The notes beneath the pieces are model-generated. The model was given only the letters and a program-made list of their open reading frames with translations, was not told where the DNA came from and made no database searches. From NCBI GenBank assembly GCA_902766775.1, contig CACXEX010000123.1, positions 1 through 40,550 on the forward strand: a stretch of DNA of 40,550 bases, written 5' to 3'. Positions 22,811 through 40,389 of the stretch are shown here, one piece after another. Positions within the stretch are counted from its first letter, which is position 1; every line of letters starts with the position of its first letter. Made by a program: the position numbers and the translations under genes. The DNA comes from an uncultured Ruminococcus sp. GTDB lineage: Bacteria; Bacillota; Clostridia; Oscillospirales; Acutalibacteraceae.

Positions 22811-22858
22811 TATAGATAGTCAGAAAATAGTTAAAAATTTAAGATTGGAGTGATTTTT

Positions 22859-23503
22859 ATGAAATACCACAAGTTGGTGGAGAACGCTAAAAAGCCGAAC
22901 GGCTTTTGGGGCAAAATGATGATTAAGGCGATGAATAAAGGACATTCAAACCTCACCTCATGGGGACTTGAACATATGAATATCGAACGCAACGCAACTG
23001 TGCTTGACATCGGTTGCGGTGGCGGAAAAACCGTTGACCGACTTTGTTCAAAGGTTGCCAACGGCAAAGTTTACGGAATCGATTATTCCGAACTTTCGGT
23101 AAAATCCTCCGAAAAACTCAATTCAAAAAATATTCTTTGCAACAAGGCAAAAATTCTTCAGGCATCTGTTTCGGATATGCCTTTTGATGACAATACATTC
23201 GACAATATCACAGCAGTTGAAACCTACTACTTCTGGCCCGACAAAGAGAATGATGTAAAAGAAGTTTTCCGTGTTCTAAAACAGGGCGGAACGGTTATGT
23301 TGCTCTTTGAAATGCTCAGGACAGATGATGACCCGTTCAAGTGGGAAAAGGTTGAAAATATGCTGAATATCAAGTCGGTAACTCCGCAGGAAATCAGAGC
23401 CGTACTTGAATCGGCAGGTTTTGAAAACATAAACACATACACTAAGGAAGGTACAACATGGCTTTGTGCCACAGCGCAAAAACCGAAGGATGATGAAAAC
23501 TAA
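22859..23503 (+). CDS. Class I SAM-dependent methyltransferase
   Basis: VLDIGCGGG, GIDYS, MPFDDNTFD and EVFRVLKQGG. ATG at 22859 with SD GGAG. Confidence 0.9.
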   Translation: MKYHKLVENAKKPNGFWGKMMIKAMNKGHSNLTSWGLEHMNIERNATVLDIGCGGGKTVDRLCSKVANGKVYGIDYSELSVKSSEKLNSKNILCNKAKILQASVSDMPFDDNTFDNITAVETYYFWPDKENDVKEVFRVLKQGGTVMLLFEMLRTDDDPFKWEKVENMLNIKSVTPQEIRAVLESAGFENINTYTKEGTTWLCATAQKPKDDEN

Positions 23504-24273: not shown

Positions 24274-24303
24274 ATATTATATAGCAACAGGGGAGGTGAC
24301 ACA

Positions 24304-25278
24304 TTGAAAATAAAATCCGCCGACAAGGCAATAAATCTTTACAAAAGAATAACAGGCAGATTTGAACCGTTCACGAGCAAATGTATTCATGATAATATCT
24401 TTGCAATTGCAGGACAGTCGGCGTTCTTTATTATTTTGTCGGCTGTGCCGCTTTCAATGTTCTTTGTGTCACTTTTGCAGAACCTGCACATTCCAATTAA
24501 CTTTGTACATCACGGACTGAGCAGCGTTTTTTCTCCGCAGATAGCAGATGACCTCACATACTTTCTGACATCTGCCTATGAAAGTGCGGTCGGAATTTCT
24601 CTTGTAACGCTCGTAATCACATTATGGTCGGCAGCTCAGGGAATACACGCAATCACAAACGGGCTTAACAGAATTTATGACGCTTACGAAAACAGAAACT
24701 GGTTCTTTCTCAGAATAAGAGCGATGTTCTATACAATTGCGTTGTTCGTAATTTTGCTTGCGTCACTTGTACTTATTGTCCTCGGCTCGACAATTAACGA
24801 GATTTTGTCTCCGCATCTTAAATCCTTGCCTGATATAATCGGAATAATCTATCATCTCAGATATGTACTCATCTTTTTGTTTCTTACCGTACTTTTTGCG
24901 TTGATATACAGAAACTTTCCGAATATTTCGCACAGGGAACACAAAGAATACGGCTTTAAGTCGCAGTTACCCGGTGCATTTCTTTGCACGGTATCTTGGT
25001 ATGTGCTTTCGTTCGGCATTTCTGTCTATGTGTCCGACTTCAACGGATTTTCGGTTTACGGAGGACTTACACGAATCGCCGTAATTATGATTTGGTTCTA
25101 CTTCCTTATGGTTTGTCTTATGGCGTGTGCCGAAATCAACTATGTTTATCATGACAGGATAAAGGCATTCACAGTTGCAAAATTCAAAAAAAGAGTAAGA
25201 ACAAAGGGAACAGAGCTTAATCAGGTGAGAAAAGAAAGAAAAAAGAATAGAAAATCCAATAAATCAAAGAAAAGTTAA
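24304..25278 (+). CDS. YihY/BrkB-family membrane protein
   Basis: AGQSAFFIILSAVP, LWSA...GLNRIY, LIYRNFP, LPGA and YGGL..IAVIMIWFY...AEIN. TTG start with SD GGAGGTG. Confidence 0.88.
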   Translation: MKIKSADKAINLYKRITGRFEPFTSKCIHDNIFAIAGQSAFFIILSAVPLSMFFVSLLQNLHIPINFVHHGLSSVFSPQIADDLTYFLTSAYESAVGISLVTLVITLWSAAQGIHAITNGLNRIYDAYENRNWFFLRIRAMFYTIALFVILLASLVLIVLGSTINEILSPHLKSLPDIIGIIYHLRYVLIFLFLTVLFALIYRNFPNISHREHKEYGFKSQLPGAFLCTVSWYVLSFGISVYVSDFNGFSVYGGLTRIAVIMIWFYFLMVCLMACAEINYVYHDRIKAFTVAKFKKRVRTKGTELNQVRKERKKNRKSNKSKKS

Positions 25279-25403
25279 TAAATTGAAAATAAAACACTTT
25301 CGTTCGGTGATAATAATTACAGATTATAATCGTCCGCATGCTCTGATACTTACAAGCAAAGCAAAAGATTGCGACGATTTAAATACCAACGGAGGTGTTT
25401 TTT

Positions 25404-26132
25404 ATGAAAACAAGGTTTTCAAAAAGGGTAATTTCAATTTTGATTGTTTTTGCGATGCTAATAGGCGGAGCGTGTCTGTCTTGTACAAGTGCAGCGGCAT
25501 TTGACCTCGGATACATTAGCGGAGACGGAATGAAACTTGGTTACAGTATAATCAAAGGTTATTCTAAAATGTCGATGAAAAAGGGACAGTACAAGGACGG
25601 AAAAATTGCCGTTTACTGCGGACTTGATGTGACAAATCTCTATGTTATGGGTTCACTCGGTTGGTTCTATGTGACAAACGGTGTTGACCTTGACCGTGCA
25701 ATGACCGACAACGATTACGCAATGGAGATGATTGCAAAGCTTGATTCACACCTTGAGGGTGCAGGCATAACAAATGATAGGGCAAAAGAGAAGAAAGCCG
25801 AGATTTTGAAGGATGCAAAATATATTTACCAGTGCTTTGATACTGTCGGACTTTATATTATTGATGTTGATGAAAACAGAGCAAACGAACTTATGAATGA
25901 CAGTGAAATTGACTTTGTGCTTGACGGCGGTTGCGTTCCCAAAAATATGAAAGACCTCAACATTGACGGCAAAACAGACGAAAAAGACGCCGAGCTTATT
26001 CAGAAGTATCTTATCAAAGACCTAACCTTTGACGATTATGACGAAAACCAGTATGCACTTTTTGTCTGTGATATCAACGGTGACAAGACGCCAGATATCC
26101 GTGATGTGACAGAAATTATGAAAAAGGCTTAA
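25404..26132 (+). CDS. Secreted dockerin-containing protein of unknown function
   Basis: SD GGAGGTG. Signal peptide MKTRFSKR...SAAA. C-terminal duplicated loops DLNIDGKTDEKDAELIQKYL and DINGDKTPDIRDVTEIMK. Confidence 0.82.
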   Translation: MKTRFSKRVISILIVFAMLIGGACLSCTSAAAFDLGYISGDGMKLGYSIIKGYSKMSMKKGQYKDGKIAVYCGLDVTNLYVMGSLGWFYVTNGVDLDRAMTDNDYAMEMIAKLDSHLEGAGITNDRAKEKKAEILKDAKYIYQCFDTVGLYIIDVDENRANELMNDSEIDFVLDGGCVPKNMKDLNIDGKTDEKDAELIQKYLIKDLTFDDYDENQYALFVCDINGDKTPDIRDVTEIMKKA

Positions 26133-26166
26133 TTGTCATTATTTGTGCAAAATTAATATGAATTTT

Positions 26167-26204
26167 AAAGTGACAGCAGTAATTTTGGCTGTCACTTTTG
26201 CTTT
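26167..26204 (+). terminator. Intrinsic terminator after the dockerin gene
   Basis: AAAGTGACAGC / GCTGTCACTTT followed by TGCTTT. Confidence 0.78.
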
Positions 26205-26247
26205 GTGAAGACAATGTGAAACTTTGAATAATTATTTGTAATTTCTC

Positions 26248-26275
26248 TTGACTTTCAGATTTAAGGTGCTATAAT
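26248..26275 (+). promoter_or_regulatory. SigA promoter of the marR-ABC operon
   Basis: TTGACT-N16-TATAAT with TG extension. Confidence 0.7.
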
Positions 26276-26286
26276 AACTGATACAA

Positions 26287-26321
26287 ATTGTTTTGTATCG
26301 AACTATTCGATATAAAACAAT
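26287..26321. promoter_or_regulatory. Long inverted repeat, putative MarR operator or 5' hairpin
   Basis: ATTGTTTTGTATCGAA-CTA-TTCGATATAAAACAAT: 16-bp arms with one mismatch, lying between the promoter and the SD. Confidence 0.6.
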
Positions 26322-26352
26322 ATCTCATAGGTGCGATTTTGGAGGTGAAATA

Positions 26353-26835
26353 ATGTGCGATGACAAAAGCGTAAAAAGCTGTAAATGCGACAAACGCTTT
26401 AATGATTCAATCGGTCATGAAATCAAGGTGCTTAATCAGGTTTTGCAGAGAAAGTTAATCTATTCCGCCAAGGATAAGGGCGTAGATAAACTCACTCTTA
26501 TGCACGGCTGGATTATTGCATATCTCTATGATCATCGAGATGAAGATGTTTATCAGAAAGATATTGAGAACGCATTTTCAATTGCACGTTCAACTGTTAC
26601 AAGTATTCTTAAACTTATGGAAAAGAAGAATTACATAACAAGAGAGAGCGTTGAAAGTGATGCAAGACTCAAAAAACTTGTCCTTACCGAAACAGGTATT
26701 GAACTTCATTACAAAATCGAAAATATGATAACCAAAAATGAAACTTTGCTTGACAGTCTGCTGACAAAAGAGGAAAAGAAACAATTTCTCTTTCTTGTAA
26801 ATAAAATCCTCAGCGGAATTGAAAAGGCAAATTAA
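26353..26835 (+). CDS. MarR-family transcriptional regulator
   Basis: ATG at 26353 with SD GGAGGTG. YQKDIE.AFSIARSTVTSILKLMEKKNYITR and DARLKKLVLTETG. Confidence 0.92.
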   Translation: MCDDKSVKSCKCDKRFNDSIGHEIKVLNQVLQRKLIYSAKDKGVDKLTLMHGWIIAYLYDHRDEDVYQKDIENAFSIARSTVTSILKLMEKKNYITRESVESDARLKKLVLTETGIELHYKIENMITKNETLLDSLLTKEEKKQFLFLVNKILSGIEKAN

Positions 26836-26852
26836 AACGGAAGGAGATAAGT

Positions 26853-28601
26853 ATGGTAAAAACTTTGGCAAAAAATATCAAAGGTTTCGTCAAAGAATCC
26901 GTCCTGACGCCGTTCTTTATGATACTCGAAGTAGTTGTTGAAACAATTATTCCGTTTCTTATGTCATCAATGATTGATGACGGTATCAACAAGGGCGATA
27001 TGCAGCACATACTCATAACAGGCGGCTATATGGGAGCACTTGCACTTACAGGCTTGTTTGCAGGTATGATGGGCGGTATCTACGGTGCAAAAGCTTCGGC
27101 AGGCTTTGCAAGAAACCTCAGACGCTCAATGTTTGCAAATATTCAGTCATTCTCATTCGCTAACATTGACCGTTACTCAACAGCAGGACTTGTTACCCGT
27201 ATGACAACCGATGTAACAAACCTCCAGAACGCATATCAAATGCTTTTAAGAATGTGCTTCAGAGCACCTGTATCTCTGATTTGTGCAATGGCAATGACAT
27301 TCATTATCAATGCACGACTTGCAAGCATCTATCTTATTGCTACAATTATCCTTTCAATCGTTCTTTTCTTCATAATGAAGGCTACATACAAGTATTTCAG
27401 CCAAGTATTTGAAAAGTACGATGAACTCAATGCAAGCGTTCAGGAAAATGTAACTTCAATCAGAGTAGTAAAGGCTTTTGTTCGTGAAAAGCACGAAGTA
27501 GGCAAGTTCAATAAGGCTGCAAACAATGTATATAGGCTTTTTGTAAAGGCTGAAAATGCAATGGTAACAGTATCACCGATTATGATGGTTACTTCATACA
27601 CATCAATCATTCTTGTAAGCTGGTTCGGCGCAAATATGATTGTCAGCAATGAACTCACAACAGGTGAACTTACAAGTATGCTCACATATTGTATGAATAT
27701 CCTTATGAACCTTCTTATGGTTGCAATGGTGTTTGTAATGCTCACAATGAGCCTTGCAAGCGGCAAGCGTGTTGCAGGTGTGCTCAATGAAAAGTCAACT
27801 CTTAAAAACCCAGAAAACCCGGTATATGAGGTTAAGGACGGCAGTATTGAATTTGACAATGTTTCATTCTCATACAGCAAAACAGCTGAAAAGCCGATTC
27901 TTAACGATATCAACCTCAAAATCAAATCAGGCGAAACAATCGGTATAATCGGCGGCACAGGTTCTTCAAAAACAAGCCTTGTAAACCTTATTGCGAGACT
28001 TTACGATGTAACAGGCGGTTCTGTAAAAGTCGGCGGAAAAGATGTTCGTGACTATGACATTGAAACTTTGCGTGACAAGGTTGCCGTTGTACTCCAGTCA
28101 AATGTTCTTTTCAGCGGTACAATCCTTGATAACCTCAGATGGGGTAACGAGAACGCAACCGAGGAAGAATGTATCAATGCCTGCAAGCTTGCTTGTGCAG
28201 ATACGTTCATCGAGAACTTCCCCGAAAAGTACAACACCAGAATTGAACAGGGCGGTACCAATGTATCAGGCGGTCAGAAACAGCGTCTTTGCATTGCAAG
28301 AGCCTTGCTCAAAAATCCTAAGATCCTTATTCTTGATGACTCGACAAGTGCCGTTGATACTGCGACAGATGCAAGTATCCGTAAGGCTTTCAGAGAGAAT
28401 ATCCCCAATACAACAAAGCTGATTATTTCACAGCGTGTATCAAGCGTTTCACACGCAGACAAGATTATTGTAATGGATGACGGTGAGATAAGTGCAGTAG
28501 GTACTCACGAAGAGCTTATCAATAAGAGCCCGATTTACAATGAAATTTATGTTGCCCAGACAAGCGGCAGCGGTGATTTTGATGCGAAAGGAGAGTTGTA
28601 A
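26853..28601 (+). CDS. Heterodimeric multidrug-type ABC exporter, subunit with degenerate Walker/switch motifs
   Basis: 6-TM domain plus NBD. Walker A GGTGSSKT, signature VSGGQ, Walker B ILDD (D replaces catalytic E) and switch ISQR (Q replaces H). Confidence 0.93.
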   Translation: MVKTLAKNIKGFVKESVLTPFFMILEVVVETIIPFLMSSMIDDGINKGDMQHILITGGYMGALALTGLFAGMMGGIYGAKASAGFARNLRRSMFANIQSFSFANIDRYSTAGLVTRMTTDVTNLQNAYQMLLRMCFRAPVSLICAMAMTFIINARLASIYLIATIILSIVLFFIMKATYKYFSQVFEKYDELNASVQENVTSIRVVKAFVREKHEVGKFNKAANNVYRLFVKAENAMVTVSPIMMVTSYTSIILVSWFGANMIVSNELTTGELTSMLTYCMNILMNLLMVAMVFVMLTMSLASGKRVAGVLNEKSTLKNPENPVYEVKDGSIEFDNVSFSYSKTAEKPILNDINLKIKSGETIGIIGGTGSSKTSLVNLIARLYDVTGGSVKVGGKDVRDYDIETLRDKVAVVLQSNVLFSGTILDNLRWGNENATEEECINACKLACADTFIENFPEKYNTRIEQGGTNVSGGQKQRLCIARALLKNPKILILDDSTSAVDTATDASIRKAFRENIPNTTKLIISQRVSSVSHADKIIVMDDGEISAVGTHEELINKSPIYNEIYVAQTSGSGDFDAKGEL

Positions 28602-28603
28602 TT

Positions 28604-30502
28604 ATGCCCGGACCAATGGGAAGAAGAAACCGAGGACCTGCACAGAAGGTTGAAAATTCAGGACAAATTCTGAAAAGACTTCTCGGTGTTATCTTTAAAA
28701 AATACAAAATTCAGATGATTATTGTTTTCGTCTGTATCCTCATTAGTGTACTTGCAAATGTTCAGGGTTCTCTGTTTATTCAGAATCTTATTGACGATTA
28801 CATCACTCCGATGATTCAGAGCGGCAGCCGTGATTTCGGCCCTATGCTCAGCGCAATTTTAAGGGTTGCAGTTTTCTATGCAATCGGTGCGGCATCCGCA
28901 TTTATCTATGCAAAAATTATGGTTTATGTAACACAGGGTACAATGCGTGACTTGCGTTGTCAGATATTTGAACATATGGAAAGCCTTCCGATAAAATACT
29001 TTGACACACACCCACACGGCGACATTATGAGTGTATATACAAACGATATTGATACCCTCCGTCAGATGATCAGCCAGAGCATTCCGCAGCTTTTCAACAG
29101 CGGAATTACAATCATTGCCGTTCTTGTAAGTATGTTTACTCTGAGTGTTCCTCTCACACTCCTTACCCTCGTAATGGTTGGCGTAATGCTTTTTGTAACA
29201 AAGAAACTTGCTTCAAAAAGCGGAAAGTTCTTTACAAAACAGCAGATTGACCTCGGTGCGGCTAACGGCTACATTGAAGAGATGATGAACGGTCAGAAGG
29301 TTGTCAAGGTATTCAATCACGAGAAAAAGAGCATTGAAGAATTCAATGAACTTAACGATAAACTCTTTGACAGCTCATACAACGCAAATAAGTTTGCAAA
29401 TATTCTTATGCCGATTAACGCACAGATTGGTAACATCAGCTATGTGCTCTGTGCAATCGTAGGTTGTATCTTTGCTCTCAACAACTTCCTCGGCTTTACA
29501 ATCGGTAAACTTGTAAGTTTCCTTACATTTAACAAGAGCTTTACCCAGCCTATCAATCAGGTCAGCCAGCAATTCAACTCAATTGTTATGGCACTTGCAG
29601 GTGCAGACCGTATTTTTAAACTTCTTGACGAAAAGCCTGAGGTTGATGACGGTTATGTAACACTTGTCAATGTCCGCAAAGAGGGCGACAAACTTGTTGA
29701 AACAGAAGAAAAAACAGGTATGTGGGCGTGGAAACATACTCACAGTGCAACAGGCGAAACAGAGTATCGTGAACTCAAGGGTGCACTTGTTATGGACGAT
29801 GTTGACTTTGGCTACACAGACGATAAAATCGTTCTTCACAATATTGATTTGTACGCAGAGCCGGGTCAGAAGATTGCATTTGTTGGTTCAACAGGTGCAG
29901 GCAAAACCACAATCACAAACCTTATCAACCGTTTCTATGATATTCAGGACGGTAAAATCCGCTATGATGGAATCAATATTAACAAAATCAAGAAAGGCGA
30001 CCTTCGCCGTTCACTCGGTATAGTTTTGCAGGATACCCACCTGTTTACGGATACTGTTATGGAAAATATCCGTTACGGCAGACTTGATGCAACAGATGAA
30101 GAGGTTATCGCAGCGGCAAAGCTTGCCAACGCAGACAGCTTTATCAGAAAACTTCCTGACGGCTACAACACTTTGCTTAAGGGCGACGGCGGTAACCTCA
30201 GTCAGGGACAGCGTCAGATGCTTGCAATTGCAAGAGCGGCTGTTGCAGATCCGCCTGCACTTATCCTTGATGAGGCTACAAGTTCAATTGATACCCGTAC
30301 CGAAAAAATGGTTCAGGATAGTATGGATAAGCTTATGCACGGCAGAACAACATTTGTCATTGCTCACAGACTTTCTACAATCAAAAACTCCGATTGTATT
30401 ATGGTTCTTGAAAAGGGCAGAATCATTGAGCGTGGTTCACACGAACAGCTCCTTGAGCAGAAGGGCAGATACTATCAGCTTTATACAGGTAAAACCGCAT
30501 AA
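28604..30502 (+). CDS. Heterodimeric multidrug-type ABC exporter, subunit with consensus Walker/switch motifs
   Basis: TM domain plus NBD. GSTGAGKT, degenerate signature LSQGQ, LILDEATS and IAHRL. The pairing is TM287/288- or EfrCD-like. Confidence 0.93.
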   Translation: MPGPMGRRNRGPAQKVENSGQILKRLLGVIFKKYKIQMIIVFVCILISVLANVQGSLFIQNLIDDYITPMIQSGSRDFGPMLSAILRVAVFYAIGAASAFIYAKIMVYVTQGTMRDLRCQIFEHMESLPIKYFDTHPHGDIMSVYTNDIDTLRQMISQSIPQLFNSGITIIAVLVSMFTLSVPLTLLTLVMVGVMLFVTKKLASKSGKFFTKQQIDLGAANGYIEEMMNGQKVVKVFNHEKKSIEEFNELNDKLFDSSYNANKFANILMPINAQIGNISYVLCAIVGCIFALNNFLGFTIGKLVSFLTFNKSFTQPINQVSQQFNSIVMALAGADRIFKLLDEKPEVDDGYVTLVNVRKEGDKLVETEEKTGMWAWKHTHSATGETEYRELKGALVMDDVDFGYTDDKIVLHNIDLYAEPGQKIAFVGSTGAGKTTITNLINRFYDIQDGKIRYDGININKIKKGDLRRSLGIVLQDTHLFTDTVMENIRYGRLDATDEEVIAAAKLANADSFIRKLPDGYNTLLKGDGGNLSQGQRQMLAIARAAVADPPALILDEATSSIDTRTEKMVQDSMDKLMHGRTTFVIAHRLSTIKNSDCIMVLEKGRIIERGSHEQLLEQKGRYYQLYTGKTA

Positions 30503-30509
30503 TAATCAT

Positions 30510-30542
30510 AAAGGAGAGTCGCAAGGCTCTCCTTTTCTTTTC
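30510..30542 (+). terminator. Intrinsic terminator of the ABC operon
   Basis: AAAGGAGAGTC-GCAA-GGCTCTCCTTT followed by TCTTTT. Confidence 0.85.
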
Positions 30543-30543
30543 C

Positions 30544-30572
30544 TTGAAATATAAATGACTTTATTGTACAAT
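30544..30572 (+). promoter_or_regulatory. SigA promoter of the MBL lipoprotein gene
   Basis: TTGAAA-N17-TACAAT. Confidence 0.6.
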
Positions 30573-30578
30573 AGAACT

Positions 30579-31502
30579 ATGAATTGTGAGGTGTTAAAAA
30601 TTAAAATAAATTCTAAATTAGCAGCAAAACTTGCAGCAATGTTTATTGTAATTTCCCTGGTGCTTTGCTCTTGTTCTCTGAGCATCAACACGGATTCAGA
30701 CACAGAGAGCAAAACAACGCCCACAAGCGGAACGCTCTCTGTTCATTACCTTGATGTTGGACAAGGCGACAGCATATTTATTGAATTGCCGAATCAGAAG
30801 TGTATGCTGATTGACGCAGGTGAGAATATGTATGGCAAAAGCATTACCGAATATATCAATAATCTCGGCTACCAAAAGATTGACTATCTTGTTGCAACTC
30901 ATCCGCACGCCGATCATATCGGTTCAATGGCATATGTTGTAAAGCATAATGATATCGGTGAAATCTATATGCCAAAGGTAGCAACCACGACCAAGACCTA
31001 TGAAAATTTGCTCAATGCAATTTCCGACAAAGGTCTTAAAGTTAAATCGGCAAAAGCGGGAATGAACATTGTTGATGACAATGATTTCAGCATAAACATT
31101 CTTGCTCCCGTTACAATTGAAGAAGACGATTTGAATAACTGTTCGATAATTCTTAAAATGAATTATAAAAGCGACAGCTTTCTATTCCTTGGGGATGCTG
31201 AAAAGAAAGAACTTGAAACCGTTACAGCAGATATGAGTGCCGAAGTTCTGAAAGTCGGTCATCACGGTAGCAGAACTTCAACGACAAAGGCATTGCTTGA
31301 AGAGGTCAATCCAAAATATGCCGTAATATCTCTCGGAAAAAACAACAGCTACGGACATCCGCACAAGAGCACATTAAAGTTGCTTGATGAATTCGGCGTT
31401 GAAACATACAGAACGGATGAGGACGGAACAATTGTGATTTCAACCGAGGGTTCGGGTGTGACAATCAAAACGGGACAAACTTCAATGAAAAGGGATGAAT
31501 AA
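30579..31502 (+). CDS. Metallo-beta-lactamase-fold hydrolase lipoprotein (ComEC/Rec2 C-terminal-like)
   Basis: Lipobox LCSC; LDVGQGD, LIDAG, THPHADHIG, NNCS, GDAE, LKVGHHGS, NSYGHP and RTDEDG. Start uncertain (30579 ATG or 30600 ATT). Confidence 0.88.
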   Translation: MNCEVLKIKINSKLAAKLAAMFIVISLVLCSCSLSINTDSDTESKTTPTSGTLSVHYLDVGQGDSIFIELPNQKCMLIDAGENMYGKSITEYINNLGYQKIDYLVATHPHADHIGSMAYVVKHNDIGEIYMPKVATTTKTYENLLNAISDKGLKVKSAKAGMNIVDDNDFSINILAPVTIEEDDLNNCSIILKMNYKSDSFLFLGDAEKKELETVTADMSAEVLKVGHHGSRTSTTKALLEEVNPKYAVISLGKNNSYGHPHKSTLKLLDEFGVETYRTDEDGTIVISTEGSGVTIKTGQTSMKRDE

Positions 31503-32451: not shown

Positions 32452-32519
32452 TTTGTGACACTTTTATTACAATTCCGATTCATTTCTCGGTGGATTTTTA
32501 CATTGAATTTTGGTATAAT
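32452..32519 (+). promoter_or_regulatory. Two-component system promoter with upstream direct repeat
   Basis: TTTGTGACA-N2-TTTATTACA (32452-32471) and extended -10 TGgTATAAT (32511-32519). Confidence 0.5.
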
Positions 32520-32585
32520 GTGTATGATTATGATGAAAATTATGTTTAATGCTTGCAATTTTATTGCAGGAAGGGTACTTTTACT

Positions 32586-33293
32586 ATGGGTGCATCAATA
32601 TATATTGCGGATGACGAAAAGAATATACGAGATCTTATTACAAAATTTCTTGAGAGTGACGGTTACAATGTTACAGCCTTTGAAACAGGTGACGAGCTTA
32701 TGGCAAAATTTCTTGAAAAGCCGTGCGAGCTTGTCATTCTCGATATTATGATGCCCGGAACAGACGGCCTTACAATATGCCGTCAGCTCCGTATGATAAC
32801 CGATGTCCCTATAATTATGCTGACTGCAAAAGATTCGGAGTATGATTATGTGAGGGGAATAACCCTCGGAAGTGACGATTACCTGACAAAACCGTTTAGA
32901 CTTACAACCTTGCTTATGAGGGTAAAATCTCTGTTAAGACGAATGGATATGAACAGCAAAAAGGTTACGGGTCAGGAGCTTTCGGACATAACAATCGGTA
33001 ATTTAAAATTTTCGGCGCAGGAAAATTTGCTTTATTGCAAGGGTAAACCCGTTTCACTTAGCAAAACAGAACTTAAAATGCTTATATATATGTTAAAGGA
33101 TTCTCAAAAGGCTTTTTCAAGAGAAGAAATTCTTGAAGGTGTATGGGGATTCGATACCGAAGTTGAAACCCGTGTAACAGACGAAACTTTGCGAAGAATA
33201 CGCAGAAAATTAAGCCTTGCAGGTAGTAATGTCAGCATAGGTACAATATGGGGATTCGGTTACAGGATAAGCATTGCGGAGGATAAAAAGTGA
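32586..33293 (+). CDS. OmpR/PhoB-family response regulator
   Basis: IADDE, ILDIMMPGTDG (phospho-Asp), PIIMLTAK, DDYLTKPF, and winged helix RVTDETLRRIRRKL...TIWGFGY. ATG at 32586. Confidence 0.94.
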   Translation: MGASIYIADDEKNIRDLITKFLESDGYNVTAFETGDELMAKFLEKPCELVILDIMMPGTDGLTICRQLRMITDVPIIMLTAKDSEYDYVRGITLGSDDYLTKPFRLTTLLMRVKSLLRRMDMNSKKVTGQELSDITIGNLKFSAQENLLYCKGKPVSLSKTELKMLIYMLKDSQKAFSREEILEGVWGFDTEVETRVTDETLRRIRRKLSLAGSNVSIGTIWGFGYRISIAEDKK

Positions 33294-34643: not shown

Positions 34644-34689
34644 TTTGTGACAAATTTGTGATACTTTTTGGCGGATTTTATGGTATTAT
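34644..34689 (+). promoter_or_regulatory. Promoter of the dlt-like operon with an OmpR-type direct repeat at the -35 position
   Basis: TTTGTGACA-N2-TTTGTGATA (34644-34663), then extended -10 TGgTATTAT (34681-34689). No consensus -35. Confidence 0.6.
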
Positions 34690-34772: not shown

Positions 34773-36293
34773 ATGAACAGCAATGTGCTGGCTTATCTTG
34801 AAAACTCAGCCGAACGCTTTCCCGAAAAGTGTGCGGTAACTGACGAAAGGGTTTCATATACATATTCTGAGCTTATAAAACTCAGCTCATCTGTCGGAAC
34901 TGCCATTTCGGAACTTATCACATCGGGAAATGCGGTAGGTATATATATGGAAAAGTGTGCAGATGCGGTTGTGGCATTTTTTGCAACCGTATATGCAGGC
35001 GGATTTTATTCCGTTCTCAACACAGAACTTCCGCAGAACAGACTTCAGACAACAGTTTCCGTTCTCAATCCAAAGCTGATTGTAACTTCGGAAAGCTTGC
35101 TTGAAACAGCGAAAGAATATTTCCCTGAAAGAAAAATTGTAACATTTGAAAATCTGGCAAAAACAGAACCCGATTACAATAAACTTGACGAAATCCGCAG
35201 TCACAAAATTGATACAGATCCGCTCTATATCAACTTTACCTCGGGTTCAACAGGCACTCCAAAGGGAATTGTTGTGTGCCACAGAAGTGTAATCGACTTT
35301 ATAGATCATTTTACCGAGATATTCGGCATTGATAATAACGATGTAATAGCAAATCAAGCGCCGTTTGATTTCGATGTATCTGTAAAGGATATCTATTCGG
35401 CTGTGAAAACAGGTGCAACACTTGTTGTTGTGCCGAGAAGAATGTTCTCTGCACCTGCCGAACTTATTGACTTTATCTGCGACCGCAAGGTTACGACTAT
35501 GATATGGGCTGTTTCGGCGCTCTGCCTTATCAGCACATTCCACGCACTTGATTACAGAACTCCCGAAACCGTTAATAAGATTCTTTTCAGCGGTGAGGTT
35601 ATGCCTCTCAAGGCACTTAAAAACTTCCGTTCACATCTTCCGAATGCGAAGTATGTCAACCTTTACGGTCCCACAGAAATCACCTGCAACTGCACATATC
35701 ACATTCTCGACAACAATTGTGACTATGCAGACGGTATTCCAATAGGCAGACCGTTCCCGAATGAAGATGTTATTCTTCTTGATGAGAATAATAACAAAAT
35801 TACAGGGATTGGAAAAGTCGGAGAAATCTGCGTGAGAGGTACTGCTCTTGCACTCGGTTACTACTCAAATCCTGAACAGAATGCAAAGGCCTTTGTTAAA
35901 AATCCGCTCAATCCGTACTATCCCGAATTGATTTACAGAACAGGCGACCTTGCAAGATATAACGAAAACGGCGAACTTGTTTTTAGCGGAAGAAAAGATT
36001 TTCAGATTAAATATATGGGACACCGCATTGAGCTTGAAGAAATCGAGCGTGAAATGTCGGCTGTTGACGGTGTTGAGCAATGCTGCTGTATTTTTGACGA
36101 GAAAAAATCAAGGCTTAAAGGCTTTTATGTCGGATCAATTGAAAAGGACGAGCTTGCCACATCAATGTCAAAAGATTTGCCAGCATTTATGATTCCGAGT
36201 ATTATCCGCAAGGTTGATGAAATGCCGCTCACAAAGAACGGTAAAATTGACCGTAAAAAGCTTGCTGAAATTGCAGGAGGCAGAAGAAAATGA
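34773..36293 (+). CDS. Stand-alone amino-acid adenylation enzyme (DltA-like carrier-protein ligase with a non-alanine pocket)
   Basis: A1 YTYSEL, A3 YINFTSGSTGTPKG, A4 FDVS, A5 NLYGPTE, A6 GEICVRG..LALGY, A7 YRTGDL, A8 GRKDFQIKYMGHRIELEEIE and A10 PLTKNGKIDR. SD GAGGTG. Confidence 0.9.
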   Translation: MNSNVLAYLENSAERFPEKCAVTDERVSYTYSELIKLSSSVGTAISELITSGNAVGIYMEKCADAVVAFFATVYAGGFYSVLNTELPQNRLQTTVSVLNPKLIVTSESLLETAKEYFPERKIVTFENLAKTEPDYNKLDEIRSHKIDTDPLYINFTSGSTGTPKGIVVCHRSVIDFIDHFTEIFGIDNNDVIANQAPFDFDVSVKDIYSAVKTGATLVVVPRRMFSAPAELIDFICDRKVTTMIWAVSALCLISTFHALDYRTPETVNKILFSGEVMPLKALKNFRSHLPNAKYVNLYGPTEITCNCTYHILDNNCDYADGIPIGRPFPNEDVILLDENNNKITGIGKVGEICVRGTALALGYYSNPEQNAKAFVKNPLNPYYPELIYRTGDLARYNENGELVFSGRKDFQIKYMGHRIELEEIEREMSAVDGVEQCCCIFDEKKSRLKGFYVGSIEKDELATSMSKDLPAFMIPSIIRKVDEMPLTKNGKIDRKKLAEIAGGRRK

Positions 36294-37468
36294 ACGAAAT
36301 CTTAAAGCAGAACAAAACTGCGTTTTATGTCTTTGATGTAAAAACCCTTAAAGACAGGGTATCATATCTCAGAAAAATGCTTCCAAAAGATGTTGCAATC
36401 TGCTATGCAATCAAGGCAAACACATTCATTACGGCAGAACTTGAAAATGATGTTGACCGCTTTGAAATCTGCTCCCCCGGTGAGGCGGAAATCTGCGATT
36501 TACTTGACATTCCTGATAAAATGATGGTTATTTCGGGCGTGTACAAAACCCCCGAGGTTATGGAAAATATGGTCGCAAACGGAAAATGCGACAGAATATT
36601 CACCGTAGAGTCACTTACACAGTTTAAACTTTTCAGAGAATTGTCTGAAAAATATAAAAAGAAAATTTCTTTGCTTTTAAGACTCACAAACGGAAGTCAG
36701 TTCGGAATCAATTCCGATGAAATCGAAGAAATTATTTCTAAAAGAAACGAATTTGAATATCTTGATATACTCGGTATTCAGTTCTTTTCGGGGACACAGA
36801 AAACTTCTCTCAAAAAACTCAAGAGAGAACTTGACAAACTTGATAATCTTCTTATTCTTCTCAAAGAGAAATATGACTATACCGCAGAAGAACTTGAATA
36901 CGGCACAGGATTTCCTGCAACCTATTTCAAGGAAGATAATATAAATGAGGACGAGCTTATCGGCGGATTTGCACAGCTTTTGAATGAAATGACTTCAAAG
37001 CCGAAAATCACGCTTGAACTCGGACGAAGTATTGCCGCAACCTGCGGTAAATATTACACACATATCGTTGATAAAAAGTGCAATAAAGGGGAGAACTATC
37101 TCCTTGTTGACGGCGGAATGAACCATATTGTGTACTACGGTCAGCATATGGCTATGAAACAGCCGTATCTTTCGGTTTGCGGAAAGGAAACCGAGCCGTG
37201 TACAGACTCATGGAACATCTGCGGTTCGCTTTGTTCAATGAATGATATTATCGCAAAACAGATTTCTTTACCTGATATTGAAATCGGCGATGTAATCTGT
37301 TTTGAAAATACAGGCGCTTATTGTATGACAGAGGGAATTTCTTTGTTTTTAAGCCGTGACATTCCCTCGGTTTATATAAAGAAGGAGGACGGAACATATC
37401 TTTGTGTTCGTGATTCCTTTGAAACATTCAATTTAAACAAACCAAATTACAGAAAGGAAACGAATTAA
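36290..37468 (+). CDS. PLP-dependent decarboxylase, fold type III (diaminopimelate decarboxylase/BtrK-like)
   Basis: YAIKAN (Schiff-base Lys), ICSPGE, SQFG, GTGFP, ELGRS, DGGMNH, GSLCSMND and TGAY. ATGA overlap with the adenylation gene. Confidence 0.85.
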   Translation: MNEILKQNKTAFYVFDVKTLKDRVSYLRKMLPKDVAICYAIKANTFITAELENDVDRFEICSPGEAEICDLLDIPDKMMVISGVYKTPEVMENMVANGKCDRIFTVESLTQFKLFRELSEKYKKKISLLLRLTNGSQFGINSDEIEEIISKRNEFEYLDILGIQFFSGTQKTSLKKLKRELDKLDNLLILLKEKYDYTAEELEYGTGFPATYFKEDNINEDELIGGFAQLLNEMTSKPKITLELGRSIAATCGKYYTHIVDKKCNKGENYLLVDGGMNHIVYYGQHMAMKQPYLSVCGKETEPCTDSWNICGSLCSMNDIIAKQISLPDIEIGDVICFENTGAYCMTEGISLFLSRDIPSVYIKKEDGTYLCVRDSFETFNLNKPNYRKETN

Positions 37469-37469
37469 A

Positions 37470-37700
37470 ATGGGTGAACTTATTGAGATTTTAGAGGACA
37501 TTAAACCCGATGTAGATTACGAAGGTTGCGAAAACCTTATTGACGGTCACTATCTTGACTCTCTTTCAATTATCTCTCTTATTGCCGAGATTGAGGACGC
37601 TTTTGATGTAACAGTTCCTGCTGTTGAAGTTGTTCCTGCAAACTTTAATTCTGTAAAGGCAATGTGGAGTATGATCGAAAGACTCCAAGAGGAGGAGTAA
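37470..37700 (+). CDS. Acyl/aminoacyl carrier protein (DltC-like)
   Basis: 76 aa and acidic, with the LDSL phosphopantetheine site, EIEDAFDVTV and NFNSV. SD AAGGA. Confidence 0.9.
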   Translation: MGELIEILEDIKPDVDYEGCENLIDGHYLDSLSIISLIAEIEDAFDVTVPAVEVVPANFNSVKAMWSMIERLQEEE

Positions 37701-37701
37701 G

Positions 37702-39336
37702 ATGGATCTCCCATCATTACTGATGGCAGGCAGTCTTGACACGCTGACCTCGTATTTTTCGGTAGCGTTTCTTGTGCTGTTTCTGCCTGTTTCAATCGTT
37801 GTGTATGCTGTCATTCCGCAGAGGGCGAGAAAGTATTTTCTGCTTATTGCAAGCTTTGCATTTTTTTGGCTGATAAGCGGTCAGCTCATTGCTTATCTGT
37901 GCCTGATAATAATGGGCATTCATTATTTCGGTTTGTGGCTTGACAGGATTCAAACACAAAAGAGTGCGGCACTCAAGGGCGTTCCAAAAGAGGAGAAAAA
38001 GGCCCTTAAAAAGGTTTATCTTCACCGTAGTCGCAGAGTTCTGCTCTTTGCCGCCGTACTTATGATAGGCGGTCTGCTTGTAATCAAATACTCACCGTTT
38101 TTCACAACAAACATAAATTCGTTGTTGTCGCTTTTGAATGTTCCGATTCAGTTTGATATTCCAAAGTATATAATGCCAATCGGTATTTCGTTCTTTACTC
38201 TGCAGGCTGTATCGTACCTCTTTGATGTTTATAGAGGACTTATAAAAGCAGATGACAACATTTTCAGACTTGCATTGTTTATGTCTTTCTTTCCGCAGAT
38301 TGTAGAAGGTCCTATCTGCCGTTACAGTCAGACAGCCGACCAGCTGTGGAATGTTAAACAAATTAAGTTTGAAAACTTCAAACTCGGTGCAGTCCGTATC
38401 CTTTTCGGTCTTATGAAAAAGCTTGTAATTGCCGACAGACTTAATCCGATGATTAAGCAGATTTTCAGCCATTACGATGACTATCAGGGCGGAATAATCG
38501 CTCTCGGAGCTCTTGCTTATACAATTCAGCTCTATTGCGATTTTTCGGGTACGATGGATGCAGTAATGGGTGTTGCCCAGATTTTCGGCGTTACAATGCC
38601 CGAAAACTTTGAAAGACCGTTCTTTTCAAAATCAATTTCGGAATTCTGGAAAAGGTGGCACATCACACTCGGTACATGGTTCAAGGATTATATTTTCTAT
38701 CCTGTCACTATGTCAAAGCCGATGAAAAACCTCACATCTTCCGCACGCAAAAAGCTCGGCAACCACTTTGGCCCGCTTGTTGCGGGAAGTATTGCGTTGT
38801 TCTGTGTATGGTTCTGCAACGGACTGTGGCACGGTTCTGCGTGGGGTTACATATTCTTCGGTATGTACCACTTTGTGCTTATCCTGTCGGGCAATATAAT
38901 TGCGCCTGCGGTTACCGCATTTAACAAAAAACTTCATATCAATCCGGAGTGCTTTGCGTACAGAGTTTTCCAAATGGTTCGTACAGGCATACTCGTTGTT
39001 ATCGGTGAAATGTTTTTCAGAGCAGAAAGACTTACCACAGGTCTTTCAATGTTCGGAAAAATGGTAACCGACTTTAACTTTTCAAGCCTTAATTATGACC
39101 TTATGGCAAAACTCAAAATTGATATGCACGATGTTATGATTGTGCTCATTACACTTGCGTTTATTTTTGTAATCGGTGTTCTCAACGAGAAGGGAATATG
39201 CGTGCGCGGTGCAATTGCAAAGAGAAATATTGTTATAAGATGGGCGGCTGTTTACGCTCTTATTATGTTCATCATAATCTTCGGTGCTTACGGCAAGGGA
39301 TATGTTGCCGTTGATCCGATTTATGCGAACTTCTAA
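37702..39336 (+). CDS. MBOAT-family O-acyltransferase (DltB/AlgI-like) with fused C-terminal Tyr motif
   Basis: PIGISFFTLQ, FFPQIVEGPI, KKLVIAD, QLYCDFSG, PENF..PF, EFWKRWHITLG.WFKDYIF and GLWHG (catalytic His). Ends PIYANF. Confidence 0.93.
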   Translation: MDLPSLLMAGSLDTLTSYFSVAFLVLFLPVSIVVYAVIPQRARKYFLLIASFAFFWLISGQLIAYLCLIIMGIHYFGLWLDRIQTQKSAALKGVPKEEKKALKKVYLHRSRRVLLFAAVLMIGGLLVIKYSPFFTTNINSLLSLLNVPIQFDIPKYIMPIGISFFTLQAVSYLFDVYRGLIKADDNIFRLALFMSFFPQIVEGPICRYSQTADQLWNVKQIKFENFKLGAVRILFGLMKKLVIADRLNPMIKQIFSHYDDYQGGIIALGALAYTIQLYCDFSGTMDAVMGVAQIFGVTMPENFERPFFSKSISEFWKRWHITLGTWFKDYIFYPVTMSKPMKNLTSSARKKLGNHFGPLVAGSIALFCVWFCNGLWHGSAWGYIFFGMYHFVLILSGNIIAPAVTAFNKKLHINPECFAYRVFQMVRTGILVVIGEMFFRAERLTTGLSMFGKMVTDFNFSSLNYDLMAKLKIDMHDVMIVLITLAFIFVIGVLNEKGICVRGAIAKRNIVIRWAAVYALIMFIIIFGAYGKGYVAVDPIYANF

Positions 39337-39348
39337 GGAGGGCTGATT

Positions 39349-40329
39349 ATGAAGAAAATGATTAAGAGAATTGTCAGCTGCGTCCTGTTCGTTGCAATAC
39401 TTCTCGGATTGCTTGAGGTATCCTCGTTTATCTTTCAACCAAAGTCAAATGACAAGGCGGCGGGTATCCATTACCCAAGGGCAAATGGTGTTCTCAGCGA
39501 ACCCAAAGACAGCCTTGATGCCATATTTATAGGTGACAGTGAGGCGTACCATTCCTTTATTCCGCTCTATATTTGGAAGGATTACGGCATTACTTCCTAT
39601 GCTATTTCATCTCCGGCACAAAAGCTCGTTTATTCAATGGAATTTTTGAAAAAAACTTTTGACAGACAGAGTCCTAAGATTGTATTTCTTGAGACAAATG
39701 CTATTTTCAGAAAATCTTATTTTGAAGATGAGATTACATACAAATCAGAACAGGTTTTTCCTGTGTTTAGATATCACGACCGTTGGAAAAATCTTCAGCT
39801 CAAGGATTTTTCAACTGCTGTTGAATATACAGCAACAGAGAATAACAAAGGCTACCTGTTCACCAAAAAGTGTAAACCTGCGTCTGATAAGGTGATTAAT
39901 AAGTATATGAAGTATTCCGATGTTTCCGCACCGATACTTTCGACCAATCAGAAATATCTTAAAGAAATTGCAAAGTTCTGTAAAAAGCACGGTGCAAAGC
40001 TTGTTCTCATAAGTACCCCGAGCACCAAGAACTGGAACTATCAGCGCCATAATGCAATGGAGACGGTTTCAAAAGACCTCGGCGTCGATTATATTGATAC
40101 AAACCTGCTTCGTGATGATATTCCGATTGATTGGAAAAAAGATTCAAAGGATAAGGGTGACCACCTTAACTACAATGGTGCCGTAAAGGTGACAAAGTAT
40201 ATCGGAAAGTACCTCAACGATACAAAGCTTTTCTCAGATAAGCGAAATGACCCGTCATTTGCAAGCTGGAATACCTGTCTTAAAAAATTTGAAAAACAGG
40301 TAAAAATAGGCAAAAATCAGGAAAGCTGA
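39349..40329 (+). CDS. Membrane-anchored SGNH-like protein (DltD/AlgJ-type periplasmic-face acyltransferase)
   Basis: N-terminal TM anchor, block I IFIGDS and block V DKGDHLN (DxxH). SD AAGGAGG. Last gene of the operon. Confidence 0.78.
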   Translation: MKKMIKRIVSCVLFVAILLGLLEVSSFIFQPKSNDKAAGIHYPRANGVLSEPKDSLDAIFIGDSEAYHSFIPLYIWKDYGITSYAISSPAQKLVYSMEFLKKTFDRQSPKIVFLETNAIFRKSYFEDEITYKSEQVFPVFRYHDRWKNLQLKDFSTAVEYTATENNKGYLFTKKCKPASDKVINKYMKYSDVSAPILSTNQKYLKEIAKFCKKHGAKLVLISTPSTKNWNYQRHNAMETVSKDLGVDYIDTNLLRDDIPIDWKKDSKDKGDHLNYNGAVKVTKYIGKYLNDTKLFSDKRNDPSFASWNTCLKKFEKQVKIGKNQES

Positions 40330-40345: not shown

Positions 40346-40389
40346 TTTTACCCCTTGCATCGTAATGATGTAGGGGGTGAAAATATTTT
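40346..40389 (+). terminator. Hairpin, probable terminator of the dlt-like operon
   Basis: TTTTACCCCTTGCATC-GTAAT-GATGTAGGGGGTGAAA with G-U pairs valid on the plus-strand RNA. The U-tract is weak. Confidence 0.6.

What the first reader, a model, noticed from the sequence alone, without database searches (positions are those of the whole stretch)
34773..40329. Dlt-like envelope acylation operon with an inserted PLP decarboxylase: candidate beta-alanyl / 4-aminobutyryl surface modification system
Seen: five tightly coupled genes (4-nt overlap, then gaps of 1, 1 and 12 nt) encoding an adenylation enzyme, a fold-III PLP decarboxylase, a carrier protein (LDSL), an MBOAT (GLWHG) and an SGNH-like protein (GDS...DxxH). 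Established: adenylation enzyme + carrier + MBOAT + SGNH is the dltABCD logic, which has no decarboxylase. Ligase + ACP + PLP decarboxylase trios occur in secondary metabolism, where an acidic amino acid tethered by its side-chain carboxyl is decarboxylated on the ACP (butirosin BtrJ/BtrI/BtrK giving 4-aminobutyryl-ACP; vicenistatin VinN/VinL/VinO). Inference: the operon joins the two logics. It would load Asp or Glu on the carrier, decarboxylate it to beta-alanyl or GABA-yl, export it via the MBOAT and esterify a teichoic acid or wall polysaccharide, adding positive charge without using D-Ala. I do not know of such a pathway being characterised.
Basis: partly seen in the sequence, partly recalled or inferred. 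Interest (0 to 1): 0.9.

Follow-up and report, generated by a model that had tools for sequence, protein, structure and literature searches.

The report
Decarboxylase-fed cell-envelope aminoacylation operon
Ruminococcus bromii and many other gut bacteria carry a conserved five-gene operon that likely hangs an acidic amino acid on a carrier protein, likely removes one carboxyl group there, and would pass the resulting beta-alanyl or GABA group across the membrane onto the cell envelope, a predicted surface modification found in none of the papers searched here.

Summary
There are five intact, tightly coupled genes: adenylation enzyme, fold-III PLP decarboxylase, carrier, MBOAT and SGNH protein. 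All five sit in this order in 72 of 80 GTDB loci; five of the eight misses are contig ends. It is not Dlt: all three Dlt NCBIfam cut-offs are missed, and the tyrosine shuttle is fused to the MBOAT. It is not LysA: the DAP-binding residues are absent, a true lysA lies elsewhere, and the best PDB sequence hit is BtrK. Best reading (0.6): an acidic amino acid is tethered by its side chain, alpha-decarboxylated on the carrier and exported as an ester. Against: the VinN/AfcQ beta-aspartate signature is absent, so Asp versus Glu and the tethering mode stay inferred. For: a second subtype (15 genomes) keeps the decarboxylase, but its adenylation enzyme has lost the amine-binding Asp. A decarboxylase-free sister cassette often sits beside an Asp/Glu racemase. 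The acceptor is unknown; two near-complete carrier genomes lack a TagF-type polymerase. An adjacent two-component system likely controls the operon. This scan noted the same cassette on other DNA at least five times. New variant; interest 0.72.

The parts
34773..36293 (+). Stand-alone amino acid adenylation enzyme. Pocket (GrsA positions 235, 236, 239, 278, 299, 301, 322, 330, 331, 517) = Asp201, Val202, Lys205, Ile244, Leu271, Ser273, Leu297, Cys305, Asn306, Lys491
   Evidence: PF00501; TIGR01733 341 > 317; DltA models 290/560 and 298/476, below cut-off; all pocket positions but 244 conserved in at least 95% of 74 homologs
36290..37468 (+). Fold-III PLP decarboxylase, BtrK-like
   Evidence: Best PDB sequence hit BtrK, E 1.7e-25; Lys42, Glu59, Arg131, Glu243, Arg246, Cys315, Asp319 and Tyr344 in 80 of 80; lysA model 152/298; model pLDDT 87.7, fold hits DAPDC and BtrK tied
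37470..37700 (+). Acidic carrier protein, phosphopantetheine site Ser31
   Evidence: PF00550; Ser31 invariant in 30 of 30 aligned; DltC model 30/68; pI 4.05
37702..39336 (+). MBOAT with catalytic His377, two extra C-terminal membrane helices and a fused acyl-shuttle hexapeptide (Tyr541)
   Evidence: PF03062; His377 in 75 of 75, Tyr541 in 74 of 75; hydrophobic segments 471-501 and 508-533; motif defined in PMC12148441; DltB model 155/375
39349..40329 (+). Membrane-anchored SGNH-fold protein (Ser64, Asp268, His272), predicted final acyltransferase
   Evidence: N-terminal membrane helix; Ser64 and His272 in 71 of 71; fold matches SGNH proteins incl. PatB 7TJB, Z 12.4, rmsd 4.3, 177 aligned
34645..34662 (+). 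Direct repeat of two 7-mers, 11-bp period, 128 nt upstream of the operon; likely response-regulator site. An extended -10-like element is seen by eye at 34681-34689
   Evidence: found in 7 of 19 loci with the orthologous regulator and 1 of 52 others
32453..32470 (+). Second copy of the repeat, in front of the response regulator gene (likely autoregulation)
32553..33293 (+). OmpR-type response regulator (probable start ATG 32586)
   Evidence: PF00072 + PF00486
33290..34603 (+). Sensor histidine kinase
   Evidence: PF00512 + PF02518
40346..40382 (+). Terminator-like hairpin closing the operon, before a separate tRNA-Leu promoter
   Evidence: 17-pair stem; tRNA at 40471

Best explanation
The five genes form one conserved operon whose adenylation enzyme likely activates an acidic amino acid through its side-chain carboxyl and loads it on the carrier, whose BtrK-like PLP enzyme likely removes the free alpha-carboxyl there, and whose MBOAT and SGNH proteins would pass the resulting beta-alanyl or 4-aminobutyryl group across the membrane onto an envelope polymer. 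Steps: (1) the genome's Sfp-type transferase primes Ser31 (inferred; gene present). (2) Loading of Asp (my odds about 3:2 over Glu for this subtype, because the amine-binding Asp201 is kept and the pocket is crowded) by the side chain (inferred). (3) Alpha-decarboxylation on the carrier (inferred from BtrK, VinO and AfcP precedent). (4) His377-assisted transfer to Tyr541 of the MBOAT's own tail, then to Ser64 of the SGNH protein, then to a polymer hydroxyl (inferred from PatA/PatB and Dlt; the residues themselves are shown to be conserved). The result would be a positively charged ester made without D-alanine, likely switched on by the adjacent two-component system. Shown: gene set, order, conservation, folds, catalytic residues, absence of DltA and LysA signatures. 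Inferred: substrate, tethering mode, acceptor, role.
For: Adenylation gene directly upstream in 80 of 80 GTDB loci and carrier in 78 of 80 (both misses at contig ends); all five genes in 72 of 80. The decarboxylase family was never found without an adjacent adenylation enzyme and carrier in unbiased draws: 5 of 300 class genomes and the 5 other strong hits among 401 phylum genomes. It shares BtrK-clade features and lacks DAPDC determinants: aromatic residue for the PLP-stacking His (Phe166 in 78, Tyr in 2 of 80), Ser/Thr316 for the Glu after the catalytic Cys, Tyr282 where LysA has Arg. A separate true lysA exists (TIGR01048 507 > 298). Characterised relatives act on carrier-bound side-chain thioesters: VinO (PMC11284099, passages), AfcP shown in vitro (PMC12186527, passages), BolN proposed (PMC7756342, passages). 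Lys205 at the pocket base is in at least 95% of 74 homologs. Subtype II (15 genomes) pairs the same decarboxylase family with an enzyme that has Ile in place of the amine-binding Asp and Arg at the pocket base. A PLP enzyme needs an amine, so there the amine must lie away from the activated carboxyl. The two subtypes form one side of a branch (SH-aLRT 87, quick tree) next to a decarboxylase-free clade of 21 loci that has an Asp/Glu racemase nearby in 7. All 186 full-length MBOATs in these loci end in the Tyr-x-x-Phe/Tyr motif. Neither PanD nor PanC was found in the 95%-complete genome, so free beta-alanine for pantothenate is an unlikely purpose.
Against: The VinN-type signature for beta-carboxyl activation (loop after the A5 core shortened by one residue, Arg331, bulky residue at 236; PMC11253843, passages) is absent. 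The loop aligns without a shortening gap to three DltA structures, whereas the control enzymes from an afc-like cluster and the TIGR03098 family do show the short loop with Arg. Asp235 plus Lys517 with a full loop is the ordinary alpha-amino-acid arrangement. One truncated locus (L149, 73%-complete genome) has the subtype I pocket followed by a GNAT, with no decarboxylase seen. Three loci (L116, L155, and L013/L023 as a pair) lack an adjacent MBOAT; the latter two genomes hold the 66% ortholog elsewhere, but the best MBOATs in the genomes of L116 and L155 are only 41% and 37% identical. The fold search does not separate BtrK from DAPDC. The acceptor is open: no polysaccharide or teichoic acid genes recur beside the cassette, and 7 of 30 carrier genomes have no TagF-type match. 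There is no biochemistry.
Confidence: 0.6

Rival explanations
1. Asp or Glu is loaded normally through its alpha-carboxyl, and the PLP enzyme does something else on the carrier: beta-decarboxylation of aspartyl-carrier to (D-)alanyl-carrier, or epimerisation. The envelope would get alanyl or D-aspartyl/D-glutamyl esters.
For: Alpha-type pocket: Asp201, Lys491 and a full-length loop. The sister clade has a free-standing Asp/Glu racemase where this one has the PLP enzyme. Fold III includes alanine racemase (PF01168 hit).
Against: The invariant Cys315/Asp319 pair and the BtrK-clade residues are those of alpha-decarboxylases. Subtype II has no amine-binding Asp, which does not fit ordinary alpha-loading. 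The characterised relatives read here decarboxylate side-chain thioesters.
Confidence: 0.15
2. The decarboxylase works on a free metabolite and the adenylation enzyme loads the product, or the tethered substrate is a larger diacid such as aminoadipate or meso-DAP.
For: Most fold-III enzymes act on free substrates, and DAPDC ties with BtrK in the fold search. The pocket code cannot name the substrate.
Against: The residues that bind the distal amine and carboxylate of DAP, Orn or Lys are absent. Strict linkage to the carrier. A Lys or Arg at the pocket base implies the loaded species still carries a second carboxylate. AfcQ was shown not to activate free beta-alanine (PMC12186527).
Confidence: 0.12
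3. The cytoplasmic chemistry is as in the best explanation, but the acceptor is a glycolipid, lipoprotein or small secreted molecule rather than a wall polymer.
For: No polymer-synthesis genes recur beside the cassette. The same adenylation-decarboxylase-carrier trio pairs with quite divergent MBOAT/SGNH modules (L115, L271-L273). TagF-type genes are missing in two near-complete carrier genomes.
Against: Every MBOAT/SGNH pair listed in PMC12148441 (Discussion read) acylates an envelope polymer. TagF-type genes are in 23 of 30 carrier genomes against 75 of 300 in the class draw (kin are not independent).
Confidence: 0.1
4. A divergent but ordinary dlt operon (D-alanylation) with an unrelated lysA paralog inserted.
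For: DltA structures are among the best hits for the pocket region. No other DltA was found in the genome.
Against: DltA, DltB and DltC models are all far below cut-off and there is no DltD hit. The pocket has Lys239 and Ser301 where DltA has a neutral residue and Cys. The decarboxylase tracks this pocket type across the tree. A real lysA lies elsewhere.
Confidence: 0.03

Closest known systems
Dlt pathway (DltA, DltC, DltB, DltX, DltD): D-alanylation of teichoic acids
   Same: Adenylation enzyme, carrier, MBOAT, tyrosine shuttle and SGNH protein; the only characterised carrier-fed MBOAT/SGNH system according to PMC12148441.
   Different: Adds a PLP decarboxylase; different pocket; all family cut-offs missed; shuttle fused to the MBOAT instead of a DltX microprotein.
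PatA/PatB, AlgI/AlgJ/AlgX, PatA1/PatB1, CcsH/CcsI: MBOAT-SGNH O-acetylation systems
   Same: Long MBOAT with two extra helices ending in the shuttle hexapeptide; membrane-anchored SGNH partner (PatB Z 12.4).
   Different: These use acyl-CoA and lack a carrier (PMC12148441). Here a carrier, a ligase and a decarboxylase are co-encoded. The first residue of the hexapeptide is Pro, not Phe.
BtrJ/BtrI/BtrK (butirosin), VinN/VinL/VinO (vicenistatin), AfcQ/AfcK/AfcP (AFC-BC11), BolO/BolC/BolN (bolagladin)
   Same: Ligase, stand-alone carrier and PLP decarboxylase acting on a side-chain-tethered acidic amino acid; BtrK is the best PDB sequence hit.
   Different: Those feed antibiotics or siderophores, not an MBOAT. 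The ligase here is neither ATP-grasp (BtrJ class recalled; BtrK-like genes beside ATP-grasp genes seen in L168, L171, L173) nor VinN-type.
TIGR03098/TIGR03099 exosortase-A-associated ligase and decarboxylase
   Same: Adjacent ligase and fold-III decarboxylase among glycosyltransferase genes (S. meliloti pSymB); closest family to the decarboxylase outside the cassette (30%).
   Different: Below both cut-offs (215/592, 173/478). Their ligase has the VinN-type short loop. No MBOAT among the 12 annotated genes of the region read.
LysA, meso-diaminopimelate decarboxylase
   Same: Same fold and PLP residues; automatic annotations name these proteins so.
   Different: Cut-off missed; substrate determinants replaced; only 22% identical to the genome's own lysA.

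Membership tests
Dlt pathway | DltA ligase (TIGR01734/NF003417 cut-off; Cys at pocket position 301) | tested here: not met
   290/560 and 298/476 bits; Ser273 and Lys205 in the pocket
Dlt pathway | DltC carrier (NF003464 cut-off) | tested here: not met
   30/68 bits; it is a carrier with Ser31
Dlt pathway | DltB-type short MBOAT (TIGR04091) with a separate DltX microprotein | tested here: not met
   155/375 bits; 544 aa with fused shuttle motif
Dlt pathway | DltD-family SGNH protein | tested here: inconclusive
   No PF04914 hit at E 0.001; SGNH fold confirmed, DltD not among the 50 rows listed
Dlt pathway | Transfers D-alanine to teichoic acid | not testable with these tools
   needs biochemistry
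PatA/AlgI-type MBOAT-SGNH systems | Catalytic His and C-terminal hexapeptide with invariant Tyr on two extra helices | tested here: met
   His377 in 75 of 75, Tyr541 in 74 of 75; helices; first motif residue is Pro
PatA/AlgI-type MBOAT-SGNH systems | Separate membrane-anchored SGNH partner with catalytic Ser and His | tested here: met
PatA/AlgI-type MBOAT-SGNH systems | No carrier protein (acyl-CoA donor) | tested here: not met
   Carrier gene directly before the MBOAT in 76 of 80 loci; the donor itself is untested
Carrier-dependent fold-III decarboxylases (BtrK, AfcP, BolN) | Fold-III PLP residues intact, with BtrK-type replacements of the DAPDC determinants | tested here: met
Carrier-dependent fold-III decarboxylases (BtrK, AfcP, BolN) | Encoded beside a ligase and a stand-alone carrier | tested here: met
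   80 of 80 and 78 of 80
Carrier-dependent fold-III decarboxylases (BtrK, AfcP, BolN) | Acts on the carrier-bound, not the free, amino acid | not testable with these tools
   needs an enzyme assay
VinN/AfcQ-type beta-aspartate adenylation enzymes | Asp at 235 and Ser/Thr at 301 | tested here: met
   Asp201 in 74 of 74, Ser273 in 74 of 74
VinN/AfcQ-type beta-aspartate adenylation enzymes | Loop after the A5 core shortened by one residue, with Arg331 | tested here: not met
   Full-length loop, Asn306; positive controls L269 and L270 show the signature
LysA (DAP decarboxylase) | TIGR01048 cut-off; PLP-stacking His, specificity-helix Arg, Glu after the catalytic Cys | tested here: not met
   152/298 bits; Phe166, Tyr282, Ser316
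TIGR03098/TIGR03099 exosortase-associated pair | Family cut-offs | tested here: not met
   215/592 and 173/478 bits

The most novel reading that the evidence does not exclude
Gut Clostridia run a family of carrier-fed MBOAT/SGNH cassettes in which a swappable adenylation pocket and tailoring enzyme choose the acyl group. This subtype puts beta-alanyl esters, and subtype II puts GABA esters, on the cell wall through a new mode of side-chain activation. That would make antibiotic-type carrier chemistry a stress-regulated surface-charge system in the keystone starch degrader Ruminococcus bromii and its relatives, with peptidoglycan as a possible acceptor.
Probability: 0.35. Interest if true: 0.87.

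Novelty: new variant of a known kind. Interest (0 to 1): 0.72.

Why it matters
A 2025 paper states that MBOAT/SGNH pathways other than Dlt lack a carrier (PMC12148441). This operon is a widespread exception, and it adds a tailoring step known only from natural-product assembly. If right, abundant gut commensals carry a cationic, non-alpha-amino-acid ester on their surface that could affect resistance to antimicrobial peptides, phage binding and immune sensing, and that annotation hides under 'DltA' and 'diaminopimelate decarboxylase'. It also predicts an adenylation pocket that activates a side-chain carboxyl without the VinN solution. A cultured strain (R. bromii ATCC 27255, 97% identical decarboxylase) makes it directly testable.

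Tried and rejected
Complex prediction of two decarboxylase chains with the carrier: no answer, score 0.04 against a mark of 0.32; no evidence either way. Sequence search of the SGNH family against the PDB found nothing; the Atlas gave only unnamed or 'SGNH/GDSL' clusters; DltD is not listed in the fold search, which does not exclude it. A genome-wide scan for the promoter repeat gave 23 sites with up to 2 mismatches against about 16 expected, so no wider regulon can be claimed. RNA control: run X1 has no cover over 20640-30599 but high cover over the HtrA gene; parts without cover prove nothing, the run was picked as a holder of the operon, and the likeness thresholds differed (90 versus 97). 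Runs X4-X8 hold small shares and were not used. In one search the afc-like adenylation protein was read in the wrong frame; those rows were dropped and the comparison redone. The tree is the quick tree; it left out proteins under 450 aa (L142, L149) and includes loci chosen by the decarboxylase, so the clustering is not an independent test. A microcystin paper (PMC6562525, passages) gave no code for side-chain-activating domains, so that comparison was dropped. The VinN structure paper and the 2023 Dlt mechanism paper are not held; a neighbourhood survey in the latter or its supplements could bear on novelty. PMC1569441, PMC12419801 and the epsSMASH preprint (supplements closed) were searched by passage and do not describe the cassette. 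A role in pantothenate supply was rejected. A LysA role was rejected.


Full report
1. Observation. A 17-pair hairpin follows at 40346-40382 and then a tRNA-Leu with its own consensus promoter. Pfam identifies four of the proteins. The fifth has no Pfam or NCBIfam hit, but its model (pLDDT 96.9, 43-row alignment) matches SGNH/GDSL proteins by Foldseek and by the wide structural search, where PatB (Z 12.4, rmsd 4.3, 177 aligned) and OatA (Z 11.8) are among near-tied rows. The host is a close relative of Ruminococcus bromii ATCC 27255 and Ruminococcoides intestinale (97% decarboxylase identity).

2. Conservation. A GTDB scan with the decarboxylase kept the best 80 of 92 confirmed loci (47-98% identity). 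The adenylation gene lies directly upstream in 80 of 80, the carrier follows in 78, the MBOAT in 76 and the SGNH gene in 72; all five occur in 72. Five of the eight misses are contig ends. L013 and L023 lack an adjacent MBOAT but hold a 66% ortholog with an SGNH gene elsewhere. L057 lacks the SGNH gene. In the best 80 of 558 metagenome loci, 54 have all five, and most misses are short contigs; many of these are near-identical R. bromii-like copies. Unbiased draws show a patchy distribution: 5 of 300 class genomes have a strong decarboxylase match, all beside an adenylation enzyme and carrier. Among 401 phylum genomes, the 5 other strong matches all carry the five-gene cassette, one with a frameshifted decarboxylase; the 5 weaker matches (E 1e-46 to 1e-54) do not. 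Coriobacteriales also carry it (L075-L080). A protein search gave 5201 hits at E 1e-10 among 7996 scored candidates, not all of this family.

3. The decarboxylase. The best PDB sequence hit is BtrK (E 1.7e-25), ahead of DAP decarboxylases; by fold they tie. The PLP residues are invariant in 80 of 80. Three LysA determinants are replaced: the PLP-stacking His by Phe or Tyr (as in BtrK), the Glu after the catalytic Cys by Ser or Thr (Thr in BtrK), and the specificity-helix Arg by Tyr (the roles of these positions are recalled, the alignment to the genome's own LysA is computed). BtrK-like genes in clostridial biosynthetic clusters share the first two features in 6 of 6; at least three of them sit beside ATP-grasp ligase genes. 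The genome has a true lysA on another contig, 22% identical. Neither PanD nor PanC was found in the 95%-complete genome.

4. The adenylation enzyme. It misses both DltA cut-offs, and no other DltA was found in the genome. The pocket is Asp201, Val202, Lys205, Ile244, Leu271, Ser273, Leu297, Cys305, Asn306 and Lys491, conserved except at 244. A basic residue at the pocket base points to a second carboxylate. VinN uses a loop shortened by one residue, Phe231, Ser299 and Lys330/Arg331 (PMC11253843, passages), and AfcQ uses the same Arg (PMC12186527, passages). Only the Asp and the Ser are shared. The loop is full length against three DltA structures, while the S. meliloti TIGR03098 ligase and an afc-like Burkholderia enzyme, identified by synteny, show the short loop with Arg. 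This is the main evidence against the reading.

5. Two natural comparisons rescue most of it. Searching 300 class genomes with the adenylation enzyme and reading 40 neighbourhoods showed a family of carrier, MBOAT and SGNH cassettes with different pockets. Four loci have this pocket (three with the decarboxylase, one truncated with a GNAT). Twenty-one have a roomier pocket with Asp235 and Lys or Arg239 and no decarboxylase; 7 of these have an Asp/Glu racemase nearby, which ties a basic residue at 239 to acidic amino acids. A second subtype, in 14 of 36 genomes of the own genus plus one of the family, keeps the decarboxylase (35-38% identity, same catalytic residues) in the order adenylation, carrier, decarboxylase, MBOAT, SGNH; 14 of 15 have the last two in the region read. 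Its adenylation enzyme has Ile in place of the amine-binding Asp and Arg at 239. Because PLP chemistry needs an amine, that substrate must carry its amine away from the activated carboxyl, which is what side-chain activation of Glu would give. The two subtypes form one side of a branch (27 rows, SH-aLRT 87, quick tree) beside the racemase-associated clade. My inference is Asp giving beta-alanyl for this subtype and Glu giving GABA for subtype II. The assignment is soft.

6. Export. The MBOAT has His377 (75 of 75), two hydrophobic segments beyond the DltB core and a C-terminal hexapeptide with Tyr541 (74 of 75). All 186 full-length MBOATs in the fetched loci end this way. PMC12148441 (passages and Discussion read) shows that this Tyr is acylated in PatA and hands the group to the SGNH Ser, and says that MBOAT/SGNH pathways other than Dlt lack a carrier. 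This operon combines the PatA-type fused shuttle with a carrier, so it belongs to neither described class. The genome also has an ordinary second MBOAT with a DHHW/AlgX protein and an Sfp-type transferase.

7. Acceptor. No polymer genes recur beside the cassette. The genome has one TagF-type gene next to an AT3 acyltransferase. TagF-type matches occur in 23 of 30 carrier genomes against 75 of 300 in the class draw, but 11 of the 30 are one family, and G128 (one contig, 99% complete) and G364 (locus on a complete chromosome) have none. A teichoic-acid-like polymer is plausible, not obligatory; peptidoglycan or a wall polysaccharide remain open.

8. Control and expression. A response regulator and histidine kinase lie upstream here, and members of the kinase cluster lie within the fetched region in 33 of 80 loci. 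A direct repeat with 11-bp period sits at 34645-34662 and again at 32453-32470 before the regulator. Of 71 loci with enough upstream DNA, it is in the operon promoter in 7 of 19 with the orthologous regulator, 0 of 9 with another regulator and 1 of 43 with none, and before the regulator gene in 13 of the 16 orthologous cases that could be read (kin are not independent). Direct control is likely. Contigs of a bovine gut RNA run (X1) cover all five genes without differences and bridge all four junctions; contigs cannot show transcription or a single transcript.

9. Literature. Ten searches (listings seen) found no paper on this cassette or on beta-alanyl or GABA esters of wall polymers. The library lacks most subscription papers, including the 2023 Dlt mechanism paper. 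Earlier notes of this scan describe the same cassette in other genomes with the same reading; they are not independent support, and my reading was recorded before I saw them.

10. Verdict. A real, conserved, uncharacterised operon that works like Dlt downstream and like BtrK/VinO/AfcP upstream, and is a member of neither family. Confidence in side-chain tethering, on-carrier decarboxylation and export is 0.6. New variant of a known kind; interest 0.72.

Noticed in passing
L117-L132, L135, L137, L138, L142, L148 (21 loci): Decarboxylase-free sister cassette (adenylation enzyme, carrier, MBOAT, SGNH). It often lies beside transglutaminase-like Ig-domain surface proteins (a single-linkage cluster in 18 loci that also holds L,D-transpeptidase/carboxypeptidase proteins), an Asp/Glu racemase (7 loci) and in one tested case an asparagine synthase. 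It suggests carrier-fed export of D-Asp or D-Glu, perhaps for wall cross-linking; worth its own study.
   Followed up: partly
L136, L154-L167: Subtype II: adenylation enzyme without the amine-binding Asp, paired with the same decarboxylase family, in 14 of 36 genomes of the own genus. L136 has two MBOAT-SGNH pairs around it.
   Followed up: yes
L133, L134, L139, L141, L265, L268: Cassettes whose adenylation enzyme has Ser at position 235 (likely a non-amino acid), with carrier, MBOAT and SGNH.
   Followed up: no
L143, L145-L147: Two or three tandem adenylation enzymes with different pockets, one carrier and a short DltB-sized MBOAT, followed by a weakly DltD-like gene.
   Followed up: no
L140, L149, L150, L266: Cassettes with a GNAT-domain gene directly after the adenylation gene; L151 and L152 have ketoacyl-synthase III and (L151) short-chain dehydrogenase genes instead.
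   Followed up: no
L061:11034-15023: Four tandem SGNH paralogs after one MBOAT; L042, L045, L047, L055, L065 and L067 have two.
   Followed up: no
G000:C11:347-7693 (L081): A 2448-aa two-module NRPS resembling aureusimine synthetase AusA (1225 bits, below cut-off) in the own genome.
   Followed up: no
G000:C18 (L257:3118-6874): TagF-type glycerophosphotransferase fusion next to an AT3 acyltransferase; candidate acceptor-polymer locus.
   Followed up: partly
window 17176-18894: HtrA-type protease with the highest contig depth in RNA run X1 over the stretches laid; depth cannot rank expression.
   Followed up: no
window 3811-9916: Two pullulanase-type GH13 genes with MucBP domains, one with dockerin and CBM26, typical of the R. 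bromii starch system (attribution recalled).
   Followed up: no
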